Source: Pocillopora damicornis (taxonomy: Eukaryota). Taken from it: DNA of 64,000 nucleotides. Shown one piece after another: positions 27,001 to 45,000 of the stretch. The position numbers were made by a program. The stretch is from NCBI RefSeq assembly GCF_003704095.1, contig NW_020843644.1, positions 248,001-312,000 of the forward strand, given 5' to 3'. Positions within the stretch are counted from its first letter, which is position 1, and each line of letters starts with the position of its first letter.

Positions 27001-30000
27001 TGTTTCTTTACATGCCTTAAAACCATCTTAATCGCCCACTATAATCGAGAAGCTATTTCTAAGACTATTGCATATAACTTTAACCGAATGAAACGCAAAG
27101 TCAGAATATTTCTATTCAGCTGTGGTGGAAAGTCACTTTCCGAAGAAATCTGTTAAACACCTTTATATTCGATATTTTCTAGCATTACTTAAGTGCATCG
27201 ACTCATTTCAAGTTTCAACTTCCTGACTTTGTATGCTCATGCATGAGAGGGGAGGGGAGAGGGACTTACACGTACGTGATCTCAGAGTAAGGTGAAACTT
27301 ATTTCTCTACTAATCCTATTCTTTTGATAAAATAATGAGCTTTTCCTAAAAATAAGAGTATTTGAATTCAACGATTCCTAGAATAGACAATTTAACTCAT
27401 TTTTCAGCATGTGACAGGCAAAGCTGGTTCCAATTCCGTACCAGTTGTCGAACCTGTCATGACAGATTTAAATCTTATCAAAATTTAATACTCTTTCCTT
27501 TACCAAGAAATTGAACATCAGCGCTTGGAGCAGTTTTTAAATAATTTCCTTTCAGCGTGAATGGCGATTCGTTGATGCAACAGCTGTGTTCCGTTTGTGA
27601 CACACCGACAAAATTACGGACGCGTGACGTAATAAACAGTGATCTGAATATTTCGTGTTGCGTGATTTGAATATTCCGTTCTCGACTGGAGGCTTTGTGG
27701 TTGCAGATATTTAACAGGTGAAAAGAATTTTCGCTTTGTGAGACGTCAGTAGTTTTATTCAACTCAATTTGATTCAAGAGTAAGACATTTTATTCCTGAA
27801 ATTCTAAAGGTTGACCGCAGCCTTTGCAAGAAACAATTTTTTACGCGAAAGATACCCTCCTTTCTAAACACAAACAATTGCTTCTGGGGTTGAGTTTTTT
27901 TTTAACTAGGTTCATGAAAAACATTAACATAACACACTTGCATTAAAATTTTATTTACAGTTAAATCCAGGAATGACTCCATGTAAAATAAAAAAATAAA
28001 AATAAAAAACCCCCTAAATTTGTTCACGTTCTTTGTTTGAGTTTTGACAGAGGTTGCATTACAATTCGTACTAAAATTAGACTAAGATCTGATTGTCAAC
28101 ATTGATCTTCTTTTTTACTATTGACGCAAAATAATATACCACTGAACAGAAGCAGTGTTCCAAATTGAAGCACCCCGAGTTTGGATCGAGTTTGCATTTT
28201 AGAAAGCAACATAATCGTACTGATCATGTCTATCAAGTACCCCTAGCTTTCACTGACTCTATCTTCTAGATCATTGAGAATCGAATAAATATATTTCACG
28301 GCTGCCCTTCGAGCGCATTTTACATTCTCTTGTCCGTCTGTTTCGATTAAGTCTAGACCAAGTAAGCAACGAGTTAGATATTCTTCTAAATAAAGGAATT
28401 CTTTGTCTTTCCTTGTTCCTTTAAAGGCCACCACCCTGGAAATCAGTTCTGTGGCTCGCACCAATTCATTCTTGATTGCCGCAAGTTTCTGTTCGTTTGC
28501 AGTTTGTATTTCGGGTGGTGAGTCATCTTGATTATCCACTACCGGTCGACTTTCCTTTGCACTTTCGTCCTCTGTGGTCACTGGAATACACCTGTGTTCG
28601 CCTGAGGTCTTTGCAGTCTCGCCCGCGGTTTGTTCTTCATTATCTGTAATCAGTGCATTTGTGGCATCACAATGATCTTCCCTCCAAGCCTCCTCGCTAG
28701 AGTCGTTGGTCGTCACAGTTTCTTCCTGGGGTTGATACTCAATAGGTATATTCCATTCATCTTGGGTTTTCTTTGGCCGTGATGGACTCGTTTGCTTTGT
28801 GTCCCCTTTCGGTTTCGTACCCTCGTGCCTCGAAAAGGGGTTTTCCCTTGCATTGTGCTGCAATGGGACTCTCGTATCATCCAACATTTGTTTATCCTTT
28901 GGAGCCCGTCTCGTTTTCTTCCTTGAGGAAACTTTTTGGGGGTTGGCAGGTGGAAAGTAAACTGCTGGGTTTTCCCAAAAGGGAAACGGTCTTTCTCCGT
29001 GAAAATCCCCCGAGCTCATGAAGAGGTTTCCTTCGTTATGACCACGTCGAGGTGGATAGCCAGTTGTCCATGGATCTCCGTAAATTATGTCACCGTACAT
29101 CGTCAATATAGTAAACTTATTGCAAACGTTGATTCTTCTTCTGCTCTCAAATCTCTGAATGACCAAGCAAAAGAAGTCCTACTTTTATAGAGAGTTTTAT
29201 ATATTTCTAGAGAATGATAGAGCGTACTGGAACGATTTGTAACTACCTATTTTTAATCATATTCGAGTCATTCTCCAATAACGAGTAGAACCTACGGGAA
29301 AACCCTGGGAGATTTTTAAATTCGTCTCCAGGGTAGGGTAGAGTTGTTTTTTTTGATGAGTCATGAGTAAACTTTTTTATTTTAAACTGCAACGTTTTCC
29401 TCCTCTTTACCCTAAATAAGGATGAAGGAAGAGCTCGTAGTGTTCACAGTTTGTGTGTATGCGATAAAAGGACGAGAAGGTGAAAAACTTGTCAAGTGTC
29501 TATGTACACCTACCCCTCCCCTATCAGGAATTCTATGAAGACTATTCCAGAACATTCGAGGTGAATTTGCCACATAGTATAAAGAGCACCACGTTGACGT
29601 AGGTGACTCAAATCAGTAAAGTGTTTGAGTTGAAAGGACCGAGTCCTTGTTGAAATAATGGGAAAAGACTACTACAAGATCCTAGGCGTCTCAGAAACAG
29701 CTACGGACGATGAGATCAAGAAGGCCTACCGAAAACTTGCTCTAAAATGGCACCCGGACAAGAACAAGAGCCCAGGAGCCGAGGACAAATTCAAAGAAAT
29801 TTCCGAAGCATACGATGTCCTCAGTGACAAAGGAAAAAAAGAAACCTTCGACAAATACGGAGAAGAAGGACTTCATGGTGTTCCTAACGGTGGAACCGAC
29901 AGTAACATGCGTTTTCAAGGCGGACCAGGTTTCGCAAGAACATTCGTCTTCACGAATGGAAATGCACGCGAAACTTTTGCTCGAGCATTTGAGAATGACG

Positions 30001-42000: not shown

Positions 42001-45000
42001 ATAGGTTATAATCACAAAGGAGCGACTCTCAAATAATACAATTCACGAGAACAATGAAATTAGGTCCACCTCTAACTAACAATTCAGTCACGACTGACTT
42101 GAACTCACTGTAAACGTTAAAATGTCTCCACTGAAATCTCCCGTCTCAAAGCACCACACAAATCGCTCGATGATGACTTTAAAGAAACCACAGTAGCTCT
42201 CTTTAGCTCTCTGAGAATAGCTTAACTGCTCCTAACAGTTACTTCCTGACGATAAGAACATCTACAACTGCCATAGGAACCCAAGCCCTTATATACAATT
42301 ATGAAATATTCTAGAACATTCGGCCGTTCGCAAACGTAACAACACCACTATTCTGGTGGCATTACATCATCCGAAAAAAATGTTCGAGGGCATTCCATGG
42401 CGTGACTCAGGAACACGAAGTGTATTATTTACATTGTGTTACAAGACAATCGAAGACAAAGTTAGATCATTGAAAATGAAAGCAGTTACAAGTCTCAGAA
42501 TAGGATTATCCTGGTCGAGGCAGATCATGTTATCACGGACTCACGATTTATAGCGCCGGGAATGCTCTAATTCATATTTTGTTGATGTTGCAAATCACGA
42601 TACGGATGTTTTGGAAGTCGACGATCAAGACTCCCACTCCAGTGTAAAATGAATAACGGGTGGTGATCGGTTACATGATTTTTCATTCAACACAGTTGGC
42701 ACTGAATACATTAAAAACATCTTAATAAATCCTTGATCCCAGCAAGTCGGTCGGTATTGACAACATCTCTCTTGCCTACTACGCCTATCTGCGCCGAGCG
42801 TTACAGATGAAGTGACTTATCTAATCAGTCATTTCATCACGACTCAGTCAATACTCACTGAGTGGAAGAGCAGTATTATCAGTCCTGTACATAAAAAGGG
42901 CAGCAAATCTGAAAAATCCATTTTTCGCCCCGTTTCCATCTTGACTACGTTTTCAAAAGTCTTTGAGAATGCTATTTTTGATCAGATGTATGCTAAAATA
43001 GCTCCTTTGCTTTCTCAAAATCTCTCTGGATTGTTAAAGAGTCATTCCTACTCTACTGCTACATTAAAGATGACAGAGGACTAACGTGCTAGCCTGGATG
43101 CTAAAGATTCTGTTGCAGTTGTCACAGTGGACCTCAGCAAAGCATTTGATAGTGTCAATCATAACCTCTTTTTTGCTAAACTAAAAGCCTACGGCTTTTA
43201 AACTACTGTAACCGATTTAATTGGAGAGTAATCGAAGGAACGACGCCAAAGGGTAACCACTGAGGGTATTTGTTCTGAATGGAAATGTGTCATGGCAGTT
43301 GTCCCCTAGGGATCTCTGCTTGGTCCATTGTTATTCAGCATATACATAAACGATGTCAAATACAGTATCCCGTACATGACACTAAGACTATATGACGATG
43401 ACACCACTGGATATAATTCTGATACTTAATTCATCTTTAGCTCTACAGTTCATGGTAAATAACAAATTGTCCTCGCTGTCTACATGGTTCGAGCAAAATT
43501 TACTCTCAATTAATAACACCAAGTCACAGGCTATGATCCCTGGCTCGGCTACACACAAGTGGGACCTTTTCATCAACGGCATGAAGGTCGAAGTGAAGTC
43601 TACTCTCAAGATTCTAGGAGTAACGTTGGATAGGAAGATTTCTAACAATGAAACGTACTTCGGCAAAGTTACATAGAAATTATTACAAGACCTCAGCTCC
43701 TAAAACGAATATCTGTCTTTGTAATGCAGTTTTAGCCTGTCTTAGTAAGGAGCAGAGCGATAGACTCGAAGATGCTAACTATTATATCTTAAGAACTCTA
43801 TTAAGGACAAAGAATGAAAGCCACGTAACCTTACTGAGTATCGTTGGCGTGAATACTTTGAAACATCGTCGTTATTACCAAGCTCTGGTGTTGACTTATA
43901 AATGTCTTAACACAATAGGTCCAAAGTACATTGCCGATTTTCTGAATTTGAGGGACATATGTTATAAACAAAGTGGTAAGGGAAGTAACTTGATACAGCC
44001 TCATTTTAACACTGAGTGGATGCATAAATCCTCTTCACTTATAGCTTGCAAGCTGTGGAATAAGCTACCGTTACTCAGACAATCTTAAAGAGTTTCAAAA
44101 GGCTTTTCATAAGTTCAACTTAGGATCCTTATATTAGGTTATTTGGTCATTATTATTTTTCTCTAATCTATTTTATTCCTTTTTATAGTTTGTGACTTTT
44201 CTAAATGTTCATGTCAAATTTTATCTCTTTCAAAAATAACAGATTGTTATATAATGATGTATTTTTAATGTAATAGGTATTACATCTTAGATAGTTAAAG
44301 TTTCTCACTTAGGTTTTTGTAATTTTTTTTCCACACGTGCACGTTCGAACGAGTTTCTGTTAACTCTTAGGTGTTTACGTGTTTAAATAAATTACTTACT
44401 TACTTATTTACTACCTTTACAATTACAGCTAAGCCTACAGCAATTTTTTCCCCAGGCGGCCTATTTCTACTCTCAACTTCAGCAAAACACAAACCCCTCT
44501 AGCTGCCAAATTAATCACCTTAAGAACAATAATGATAACAGTAGTAATGGTATCATTAATAATAATTCATTAATAATAATAACCATAACAATTGTTTAAT
44601 GGCAAAATTAAGAACAATATTAACGACAATATCAATGATAAACAACAATTCACCGAAGTAGAGGTGGGTTAAAGTTGTAAATATCCACCGCTGGCGAGCG
44701 ACACTGAGTTGAATAATTATTTTAATGTATACTGAAACAGTGAGATAAGTTAGCACAAAACCTTGCTATCCACTGTTTATGTATATACTTATAATAACCA
44801 TGACATTTATGAAGGTAACAATCCTAAATTGCAGTCATGAATAATTATTGGATGATAACTTTAGATAAAACCTGGACTTCTGATACATTTTGATACAAAT
44901 TAAAATTCAGGTTATCCCATGTCCATGAAGATCAACTTCTTGGCGAACTCATAGTTCATTTTTCGGACAATCTTAATCGAAGCTTTCTGCACCATCTTTC

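What the first reader, a model, noticed from the sequence alone, without database searches (positions are those of the whole stretch)
29544..42322. Strong local excess of perfect heat-shock elements
Seen: seven perfect three-unit HSEs in ~13 kb (29544, 35465, 35899, 36476, 37302, 37623, 42308), plus near-perfect ones (~35216-35228, ~38681-38693). I noticed only one elsewhere in the window (3800-3814). A rough estimate assuming ~62% AT gives about one such site per 64 kb by chance. Inference: the block acts as an HSF-responsive domain.
Basis: partly seen in the sequence, partly recalled or inferred. Interest (0 to 1): 0.65.

Follow-up and report, generated by a model that had tools for sequence, protein, structure and literature searches.

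The report
Heat-shock co-chaperone gene cluster
The excess of heat-shock elements is real and marks the promoters and one intron of four clustered heat-shock helper genes (two Hsp40-type and two BAG-type), an ordinary kind of stress-gene cluster in an unusual pairing.

Summary
All 7 perfect three-unit HSEs listed for 29.5-42.3 kb exist. The block has 7 against 0.3-0.45 expected, and 0 of 1,200 simulations reached 7. The sites are not repeat copies.

The block holds four intron-poor Hsp70 co-chaperone genes in two head-to-head pairs in mirror order:
- BAG1 (-) / DnaJB-1 (+)
- DnaJB-2 (-) / BAG2 (+)

Three HSEs lie 101-186 nt upstream of the DnaJB-1, DnaJB-2 and BAG2 start codons. Three lie in the single 1.9-kb intron of DnaJB-2. 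One, at 42309, sits 13 nt from a TATA box and heads a leader with no recognisable coding sequence behind it. The three promoter HSEs and this orphan share GAATGTTCTnGAA.

Best reading: these are ordinary HSF-driven promoters of a heat-shock co-chaperone cluster, plus intronic sites and one orphan promoter of unknown target. It is not shown to be a special "domain". HSF binding, heat induction and conservation in other species could not be tested here. Interest is modest. It is a new member of a known kind. The J-protein/exchange-factor pairing around shared HSEs was not found in four literature searches.

The parts
28243..29100 (-). BAG1: intronless 285-aa ORF with a C-terminal BAG domain (Hsp70 nucleotide-exchange factor type)
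   Evidence: ORF. Pfam BAG 1.7e-12, 48.1 bits against a cut-off of 23.4. PDB BAG5 1e-10 and BAG3 1.6e-10.
29184..29203 (-). Two TATA-like motifs 84-103 nt upstream of the BAG1 ATG
29288..29300 (.). Imperfect HSE (8 of 9 core bases) about 190 nt upstream of the BAG1 ATG
29540..29557 (.). HSE in the BAG1/DnaJB-1 intergenic region: 3 perfect units plus 1 imperfect. It is 101 nt from the DnaJB-1 ATG and 445 nt from the BAG1 ATG.
29578..29584 (+). TATAAAG, 20 nt downstream of the HSE; the DnaJB-1 core promoter
29658..30695 (+). DnaJB-1: intronless 345-aa class B J-protein (J domain with HPD, G/F-rich linker, DnaJ_C)
   Evidence: Pfam DnaJ 9.7e-29 and DnaJ_C 3.9e-39. PDB DNAJB13 and DNAJB1.
34232..34914 (-). 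DnaJB-2 exon 2 (linker and DnaJ_C domain); acceptor TTTCACAG|
   Evidence: Pfam DnaJ_C 6.2e-39. Splice-site and frame check. PDB DNAJB1 C-terminal domain 2.9e-59.
34915..36804 (-). DnaJB-2 intron (1,890 nt) holding 3 perfect and 3 near-perfect HSEs
35216..35228 (.). Near-perfect HSE (8 of 9) in the intron; another lies at 35333-35345
35466..35478 (.). Perfect HSE in the intron
35878..35912 (-). Perfect HSE (35900-35912), then 14 nt, then TATATATT (35885-35878) on the strand of DnaJB-2: an internal promoter-like module
   Evidence: No coding first exon and no GTRAG donor lies downstream; there are 16 ATGs before exon 2.
36477..36489 (.). Perfect HSE in the intron; an 8-of-9 site follows at 36524
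36805..37117 (-). DnaJB-2 exon 1 (J domain with HPD); donor CAG|GTAGGT
   Evidence: Pfam DnaJ 6e-27.. PDB human Hsp40/DNAJB1 J domain 3.8e-29.
37303..37315 (.). Perfect HSE 186 nt upstream of the DnaJB-2 ATG
37624..37636 (.). Perfect HSE 170 nt upstream of the BAG2 ATG
37806..38555 (+). BAG2: intronless 249-aa ORF with a diverged C-terminal BAG domain
   Evidence: Pfam BAG 3e-4, 21.6 bits, below the 23.4 cut-off. BLASTP to the BAG1 domain 29% identity, E=2e-9. PDB BAG5 3.7e-5. Atlas best hits are all BAG, score 0.88.
38650..38695 (.). CCAAT-box motif next to an imperfect, interrupted HSE-like array, downstream of the BAG2 stop codon
42288..42321 (-). Orphan heat-shock promoter: perfect HSE (42309-42321), then 13 nt, then TATATAAG (42295-42288)
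42103..42260 (-). Putative non-coding leader exon with no ATG in 42255-42108, ending at a GTGAGT donor (42108-42103). The downstream target is unknown.
   Evidence: The fold is not unusual, z=-0.30. No family found downstream and no Rfam match.

Best explanation
The HSE excess marks a cluster of heat-shock co-chaperone genes. Two DNAJB1-like J-proteins stimulate ATP hydrolysis by Hsp70. Two BAG-domain proteins are of the type that promotes nucleotide exchange on Hsp70. They lie as two head-to-head pairs in mirror order. On heat or proteotoxic stress, trimeric HSF would bind the three-unit HSEs in the two short intergenic regions (557 and 688 bp between start codons) and switch on both genes of each pair. 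The three HSEs in the only intron of DnaJB-2 would act as extra, downstream HSF sites that boost the locus. The HSE/TATA module at 42309 would start a further heat-induced transcript on the minus strand. That transcript is either a non-coding RNA or a distal leader of DnaJB-2.

Shown: the sites, their excess, the gene identities and the promoter geometry. Inferred: HSF binding, heat induction, shared use of the HSEs by both genes of a pair, and the roles of the intronic and orphan sites.
For: Excess:
- 7 perfect HSEs against 0.3-0.45 expected; 0 of 1,200 simulations reach 7.
- Control motifs give 0-2 in the block.

Genes:
- The block's recognisable genes are exactly four Hsp70 co-chaperones. 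The window's other recognisable genes are unrelated: a NEMO-like coiled coil, a POU homeobox gene, an oxidoreductase and a MOZART2-like ORF.
- Three of the four genes are intronless and the fourth has one intron.

Placement:
- HSEs lie 101, 186 and 170 nt upstream of the DnaJB-1, DnaJB-2 and BAG2 start codons.
- 3 of 7 block HSEs have a TATA-like motif 5-30 nt away in the outward direction, against 3.7% of all window positions (binomial P=0.0016).
- The three promoter HSEs and the orphan share GAATGTTCTnGAA: 4 matches against 0.03 expected (pattern chosen after seeing the sites). Their flanks are unrelated.

Literature:
- In Drosophila, DnaJ-1 and the BAG gene starvin are two of only nine genes that are HSF-bound and heat-induced in both cells and larvae (PMC3021535, passages).
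- Human BAG3 and DNAJB1 are shown as heat-induced genes (PMC5557961, passages).
- HSF sites in introns are common in flies (PMC3021535, abstract), and intronic HSEs are reported for HSPB1 (PMC2981734, passage citing its reference 52).
Against: - No expression or binding data exist here.
- BAG1's nearest perfect HSE is 445 nt from its ATG; only an 8-of-9 site lies closer.
- The DnaJB-2 and BAG2 promoters have no TATA box.
- Near-perfect, gapped and step-type HSEs are not clearly enriched.
- The intronic HSE/TATA module has no usable coding exon or donor behind it.
- The orphan promoter has no identifiable product: 0 significant families in 20 ORFs and no Rfam match.
- BAG2 scores below Pfam's cut-off. 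At the aligned positions where BAG1, BAG3 and BAG5 carry EE, D and RR, it carries other residues. That these are Hsp70 contacts is recalled, not tested.
- Conservation in related species could not be checked.
Confidence: 0.85

Rival explanations
1. The cluster is a chance or compositional effect of AT-rich DNA.
For: The window is AT-rich, GC 0.30-0.42. 8-of-9 sites are only about 1.5-fold enriched. The block limits were set after the sites were seen.
Against: 0 of 100 shuffles and 0 of 1,200 Markov simulations reach the observed counts. Permuted and re-spaced control motifs give 0-2 in the block. The scan statistic gives P=0.008. Independently, the sites coincide with the window's only chaperone genes and with TATA boxes.
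Confidence: 0.02
2. The HSEs are carried by copies of a repeat or transposon, as Helitrons carry HSEs in C. elegans.
For: HSE-bearing Helitrons bound by HSF-1 are described in C. elegans (PMC6765114, passages). Four sites share 12 of 13 bases. ORFs at 43.4-44.1 kb have no family and may be mobile-element debris (that reading is mine and untested).
Against: The 40-nt flanks of the 9 sites are unrelated. No self-BLAST hit touches 27-44.5 kb (0 of 33 rows). The repeat finder gives only short families centred on the HSE core itself (D3 and D19). No tandem array overlaps any HSE; the only array TRF finds between 27 and 45 kb is at 44.5 kb.
Confidence: 0.03
3. Only the promoter-proximal HSEs work. 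The three intronic HSEs and the orphan 42309 promoter are relics, for example of decayed heat-shock genes or promoters, with no present function.
For: There is no coding exon, no GTRAG donor, and 16 ATGs behind the intronic HSE/TATA. No family appears in 20 ORFs between 38.6 and 42.5 kb. A weak DnaJ_C-like relic exists elsewhere in the window (62435-62542, tblastn E=0.002), so members of this family have decayed nearby.
Against: Perfect 13-mers decay quickly without selection, yet four perfect sites persist here. The orphan HSE is letter for letter the variant at the DnaJB-2 promoter and keeps a TATA box at 13 nt. tblastn with the four proteins finds no gene remnant in 38.6-42.3 kb; the best hits there have E>3.
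Confidence: 0.2
4. The 42309 module is the distal, TATA-containing promoter of DnaJB-2. Its leader exon would splice over BAG2 to an acceptor just upstream of the DnaJB-2 ATG, so that BAG2 is nested in a 5-kb first intron.
For: It is on the same strand as DnaJB-2. The leader has no ATG in 42255-42108 and ends in GTGAGT. A pyrimidine-rich ...CTTCAG acceptor-like site lies about 20 nt upstream of the DnaJB-2 ATG (read by eye). The proximal DnaJB-2 promoter lacks a TATA box.
Against: A GTRAGT hexamer within 300 nt is expected about 0.15 times by chance (my estimate). No splice evidence exists. The HSE at 37303 already sits at normal promoter distance from the ATG.
Confidence: 0.15

Closest known systems
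C. elegans hsp-16 divergent gene pairs (hsp-16.2/hsp-16.41)
   Same: Head-to-head heat-shock genes share a short HSE-bearing intergenic promoter bound by HSF-1 (PMC6765114, passage). That pairs are duplicated in inverted order is recalled, not read here.
   Different: Those pairs are paralogous small heat-shock proteins. Here each pair joins two unrelated families, a J-protein and a BAG protein, and one member carries an HSE-rich intron.
Drosophila DnaJ-1 and starvin (BAG); human DNAJB1 and BAG3
   Same: The same two protein families. They are HSF-bound and heat-induced in flies (PMC3021535, passages) and heat-induced in human cells (PMC5557961, passages).
   Different: As far as I recall, those genes are not neighbours. 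Adjacency was not tested here, and orthology of the window's genes to them was not established.
Bacterial grpE-dnaK-dnaJ heat-shock operons (recalled)
   Same: The Hsp70 system's exchange factor and J-protein are co-regulated from one heat-shock promoter. This is an analogy of logic only.
   Different: Those are polycistronic and under sigma-32 or HrcA control, and GrpE is unrelated to BAG. Here there are divergent monocistronic genes under HSEs, and no Hsp70 gene in the window.
Intronic HSEs (rat hsp27/HSPB1 first intron; Drosophila intronic HSF sites)
   Same: HSEs lie inside the first intron of a heat-shock gene (PMC2981734, passage citing its reference 52). In flies 57% of HSF sites lie within genes, about two-thirds of those in introns (PMC3021535, abstract).
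   Different: Here three perfect and three near-perfect sites lie in one 1.9-kb intron, and one has its own TATA box.
HSF-driven non-coding RNAs
   Same: An HSE-bearing promoter with no coding product. C. elegans has HSF-1-bound HSEs at ncRNA genes (PMC6765114, abstract).
   Different: No transcript is known for the 42309 module. It matches no Rfam family.

Membership tests
Heat-shock element (HSF trimer site) | At least three contiguous inverted nGAAn units | tested here: met
   7 perfect sites in the block and 9 in the window. Two extend to a fourth, imperfect unit.
Heat-shock element (HSF trimer site) | Placed in the promoter region of stress genes, close to the core promoter | tested here: met
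   Three sites lie 101-186 nt upstream of the DnaJB-1, DnaJB-2 and BAG2 start codons. One lies 13 nt from the TATA box of the orphan promoter. Three are intronic.
Heat-shock element (HSF trimer site) | Bound by HSF and needed for heat induction | not testable with these tools
   No ChIP, ATAC or RNA data are on hand.
Class B J-domain protein (DNAJB1/Sis1 type) | N-terminal J domain with the HPD motif | tested here: met
   Pfam DnaJ 9.7e-29 and 6e-27 over 63 of 63 profile positions. HPD is read in both translations.
Class B J-domain protein (DNAJB1/Sis1 type) | G/F-rich linker, DnaJ_C substrate-binding domains, and no zinc-finger domain | tested here: met
   DnaJ_C 3.9e-39 and 6.2e-39 over 152 of 152 positions, with no zinc-finger family reported. 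The best PDB matches by exon are DNAJB1; for DnaJB-1 they are DNAJB13 and DNAJB1. The G/F-rich stretch is read.
BAG-domain Hsp70 nucleotide-exchange factor | C-terminal BAG domain above the family threshold | tested here: met
   BAG1: 48.1 bits against a cut-off of 23.4; BAG5 and BAG3 at 1e-10.
BAG-domain Hsp70 nucleotide-exchange factor | The same, for BAG2 | tested here: inconclusive
   21.6 bits against a cut-off of 23.4. Support comes from BLASTP to BAG1 at 2e-9, PDB BAG5 at 3.7e-5 and the Atlas, where all ten best hits are BAG at 0.88, a lead only.
BAG-domain Hsp70 nucleotide-exchange factor | Binds the Hsp70 nucleotide-binding domain and speeds ADP release | not testable with these tools
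   There is no Hsp70 gene in the window and no assay.
Divergent heat-shock gene pair with a shared HSE promoter | Head-to-head genes, a short intergenic region, and an HSE between them | tested here: met
   Pair 1: 557 bp between the ATGs, 1 perfect HSE. Pair 2: 688 bp, 2 perfect HSEs.
Divergent heat-shock gene pair with a shared HSE promoter | Both genes induced through the shared element | not testable with these tools
   Needs expression data and promoter mutants.
   Nothing in the sequence demands it.

The most novel reading that the evidence does not exclude
The locus is a selected co-regulation unit for the Hsp70 cycle. A J-protein and a BAG exchange factor are kept as a divergent pair around one high-affinity HSE variant (GAATGTTCTnGAA). 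The pair is duplicated as a mirror image. It is supplemented by an intronic HSE array acting as a heat-shock enhancer, and by an HSE/TATA-driven non-coding transcript that runs antisense towards BAG2. This would be a eukaryotic counterpart of the bacterial grpE/dnaJ operon logic. If the pairing is conserved across a phylum, it would show selection for linked dosage of the two opposing regulators of Hsp70.
Probability: 0.2. Interest if true: 0.5.

Novelty: new member of a known kind. Interest (0 to 1): 0.3.

Why it matters
The finding gives a clean, compact set of predicted HSF targets in an unnamed animal genome. These are four co-chaperone genes, seven perfect HSEs, and a preferred 13-mer that could serve as a heat-inducible promoter part or a marker of thermal-stress response. 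The pairing of a J-protein with an exchange factor around shared HSEs, seen twice, suggests selection for joint dosage of two regulators that push the Hsp70 cycle in opposite directions. If the pairing is conserved, that idea is cheap to test by comparative genomics and heat-shock RNA-seq. Otherwise this is textbook heat-shock gene architecture.

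Tried and rejected
Gene and RNA searches that found nothing:
- Pfam on the 10 longest minus-strand ORFs of 38.6-41.9 kb: 0 significant families; the best E-values were 0.017 and 0.18.
- Pfam on 10 further ORFs, covering the plus strand of 38.7-42.5 kb, the intron ORF, one ORF at 32.3 kb and the leader: nothing better than E=0.009, all well below cut-offs.
- Rfam at gathering scores over the whole window: 0 matches.
- tblastn of the four proteins against the window: no further copies except a weak DnaJ_C-like piece at 62.4 kb.

Ideas tested and not supported:
- A J-domain-less DnaJB-2 isoform from the intronic HSE/TATA module: no ATG-to-donor exon in the right phase, no GTRAG donor, and 16 ATGs before exon 2.
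- An unusually folded or unfolded leader: z=-0.30.
- A GGGGAGGGG motif next to HSE 29545 as a promoter partner: the motif is frequent window-wide (29 against 2.5 expected, one mismatch allowed) and not tied to HSEs.

Tools and data not available:
- The bacterial/archaeal genome collection and the phage, plasmid and E. coli collections were not used, as they are irrelevant to an animal locus.
- Supplementary tables of the cited papers (HSF target lists) are closed.

Literature: four searches for a described BAG/DnaJ divergent pair returned no paper describing one. This covers only the open-access library that was searched.

Spliced model: the joined DnaJB-2 model was not searched. Its two exons were searched separately.

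Full report

A both-strand search for GAAnnTTCnnGAA finds 9 sites in the 64-kb window: 3801, 29545, 35466, 35900, 36477, 37303, 37624, 42309 and 56260. The reverse-complement pattern returns the same nine.

Both near-perfect sites are 8-of-9 matches.

Tests against chance:
- Dinucleotide shuffles of the window give 1.52 and 1.31 sites, with a largest value of 5; 0 of 100 reach 9.
- For 29544-42322, simulations of Markov order 1, 2 and 3 trained on the block give 0.38, 0.32 and 0.45 sites; 0 of 400 in each reach 7.
- Poisson P is 5e-8 to 5e-7.
- Because the block's limits were drawn after the fact, I also asked how often some 7 of 9 randomly placed sites fall within 12.8 kb: P=0.008.
- Six control motifs (permuted letters, direct repeats, spacings of 1, 3 or 4) give 0-4 per window and 0-2 in the block.

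Weaker points:
- 8-of-9 sites are only about 1.5-fold enriched: 15 of 39 lie in 28-44 kb, and three of those are extensions of perfect sites.
- Gapped and step-type HSEs are not enriched; 1 of 7 is in the block.
- Two-unit HSEs run at 2.7 per kb in 29-43 kb against 0.92 per kb elsewhere.

The two sites outside the block equal the chance expectation. One of them, 56260, lies inside a coding exon of an oxidoreductase.

**2. Are the sites repeat copies?**

They are not. The 40-nt flanks are unrelated. None of the 33 self-BLAST rows at E<=1e-5 touches 27-44.5 kb. The repeat finder reports only short families centred on the HSE core. TRF finds nothing at the sites.

**3. What is in the block?**

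Four genes, all Hsp70 co-chaperones:

| Gene | Coordinates | Size and structure | Main evidence |
|---|---|---|---|
| BAG1 | 28243-29100 (-) | 285 aa, intronless | Pfam BAG 1.7e-12 |
| DnaJB-1 | 29658-30695 (+) | 345 aa, intronless | DnaJ 9.7e-29, DnaJ_C 3.9e-39 |
| DnaJB-2 | 34232-37117 (-) | two exons | see below |
| BAG2 | 37806-38555 (+) | 249 aa, intronless | diverged BAG domain, see below |

DnaJB-2:
- The J-domain exon is 37117-36805, with donor CAG|GTAGGT.
- The DnaJ_C exon is 34914-34232, with acceptor TTTCACAG|.
- This donor/acceptor pair keeps the frame open. It leaves a 1,890-nt intron.
- The joined model was used only for that frame check and was not searched. The exons were searched one by one. 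Each matches human DNAJB1 best: 3.8e-29 for the J domain and 2.9e-59 for the C-terminal domain.

DnaJB-1 matches DNAJB13 and DNAJB1. The two J-proteins are 60% identical over 72 aa of the J domain and 49% over 208 aa of the C-terminal domain, so the duplication is old.

BAG domains:
- BAG1's domain matches BAG5 and BAG3 at 1e-10.
- BAG2's domain is diverged. Pfam gives 21.6 bits, below the 23.4 cut-off.
- BAG2 is 29% identical to BAG1's domain (E=2e-9) and matches BAG5 at 3.7e-5.
- Its ten nearest Atlas clusters all carry BAG, at score 0.88, which is a lead only.

The order is BAG1<- ->DnaJB-1 ... DnaJB-2<- ->BAG2: two head-to-head pairs in mirror image.

The window's other recognisable genes are unrelated to stress. 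They are a NEMO-like coiled coil, a POU homeobox gene, an oxidoreductase and a MOZART2-like ORF.

The locus is from an animal. I do not take it for human, because the J-proteins are only distant relatives of the human ones (alignment). The taxon was not determined.

**4. Where do the HSEs sit?**

- 29545 lies in the 557-bp BAG1/DnaJB-1 intergenic region. It is 20 nt upstream of TATAAAG and 101 nt from the DnaJB-1 ATG. BAG1 has its own TATA motifs at 29184-29203 and only an 8-of-9 HSE nearby, at 29288.
- 37303 and 37624 lie in the 688-bp DnaJB-2/BAG2 intergenic region. They are 186 and 170 nt from the respective ATGs. No TATA box accompanies either.
- 35466, 35900 and 36477 lie in the DnaJB-2 intron, together with 8-of-9 sites at 35216, 35333 and 36524. 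35900 is followed, 14 nt on and on the gene's strand, by TATATATT.
- 42309 is followed on the minus strand, 13 nt on, by TATATAAG. After that comes about 150 nt without an ATG (42255-42108) and then a GTGAGT donor.

Three of the 7 HSEs thus have a TATA-like motif 5-30 nt away in the outward direction, against 3.7% of all window positions (P=0.0016).

The three promoter HSEs and the orphan share GAATGTTCTnGAA: 4 exact matches against 0.03 expected. The pattern was read off the sites themselves, so that test is partly circular. By my own estimate, the chance that 4 of 7 HSEs agree at the three free positions is about 1e-4. The intronic sites differ from this variant.

**5. How it most likely works**

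DNAJB1-type and BAG-type genes are core HSF targets:
- In Drosophila, DnaJ-1 and starvin (BAG) are 2 of the 9 genes that are both HSF-bound and heat-induced in cells and in larvae (PMC3021535, passages).
- Human BAG3 and DNAJB1 are shown as heat-induced (PMC5557961, passages).

The plain reading is therefore that heat-activated HSF trimers bind these sites and fire both genes of each pair. The scarcity of introns fits heat-shock genes, a link I recall rather than tested.

The intronic sites would add HSF binding downstream of the start site. Intragenic and intronic HSF sites are common in flies (PMC3021535, abstract). Intronic HSEs are reported for HSPB1 (PMC2981734, passage citing its reference 52).

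A J-domain-less isoform from the intronic HSE/TATA is unlikely. There is no donor and no phase-compatible coding exon, and 16 ATGs precede exon 2.

**6. The orphan promoter at 42309**

This is the one part that stays open.
- Behind it, from 42.1 down to 38.6 kb, 20 ORFs gave no family.
- Rfam gave nothing.
- The four proteins find no remnant there.

It may start a heat-induced non-coding RNA; HSF-1-bound HSEs at ncRNA genes are known in C. elegans (PMC6765114, abstract). It may instead be a distal leader of DnaJB-2 spliced over BAG2, or a relic. Only transcript data can tell.

**7. Comparison and novelty**

The architecture is that of known heat-shock gene clusters and divergent pairs, such as the C. 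elegans hsp-16 pairs. The new point is the content: a J-protein and an exchange factor paired twice around shared HSEs.

Four full-text searches found no description of such a pair. That covers the open-access library only.

I could not test conservation, because no eukaryotic genome or protein collection was open.

**Verdict**

- It is a new member of a known kind, of modest interest.

Noticed in passing
With 3801, it accounts for the chance expectation outside the block.
   Followed up: yes
window 40850-41009 and 38650-38671: Five CCAAT boxes (either orientation) lie within about 160 bp at 40.85-41.0 kb. A 22-nt CCAAT-bearing motif recurs at 38650 and 40988 with 86% identity and an exact 14-mer. 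The copy at 38650 abuts an interrupted HSE-like array. This may be another promoter; no gene was found beside it.
   Followed up: partly
window 62435-62542 (-): A weak DnaJ_C-like piece (tblastn E=0.002 to DnaJB-1 residues 166-204) with no Pfam match. It may be a decayed exon or part of a third J-protein gene near the window's end.
   Followed up: partly
window 24685-24697 and 24887-25882 (+): An ORF encodes a NEMO/optineurin-like coiled coil (CC2-LZ 6.1e-07, below the cut-off). An 8-of-9 HSE of the same flavour (two mismatches to GAATGTTCTnGAA) lies about 320 nt upstream of the ORF's first ATG. It could be a further weak HSF target.
   Followed up: no
window 38300-38540 (BAG2 residues about 190-235): At the aligned positions where BAG1, BAG3 and BAG5 carry EE, D and RR, BAG2 has other residues. 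That these are Hsp70 contact positions is recalled, not tested. BAG2 may have changed or lost exchange-factor activity.
   Followed up: partly
window 28750-28790 (BAG1) and 37870-37920 (BAG2): The two BAG proteins share a short N-terminal motif (Q-x-EWN-x-P...Q-x-QE; BLASTP E=0.47, not significant). In BAG1 it contains I-P-I, which recalls the sHSP-binding IPV motifs of BAG3. That resemblance is recalled only.
   Followed up: no
window 39163-41773 (-), 29513-29521: GGGGAGGGG-like runs occur 29 times, one mismatch allowed, against 2.5 expected. Many are on the minus strand between 39.1 and 41.8 kb, and one is 20 nt from HSE 29545. Their meaning is unknown.
   Followed up: partly
window 33300-34231: No AATAAA or ATTAAA signal lies on the gene's strand within 930 nt downstream of the DnaJB-2 stop codon. 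The other three genes have one within 300-800 nt.
   Followed up: no
window 63134-63407: A minisatellite of 16 copies of a 17-nt unit with 84% matches.
   Followed up: no
window 53380-54114 (-): An exon encoding a POU domain plus a homeodomain (1.1e-36 and 2.5e-17). It is unrelated to the finding.
   Followed up: no
window 43392-44088 (+): Two overlapping ORFs have no Pfam match. To my eye they look like the tail of a degenerate retroelement; this was not tested. They lie 1.1 kb from the orphan promoter, on the other side of it.
   Followed up: partly
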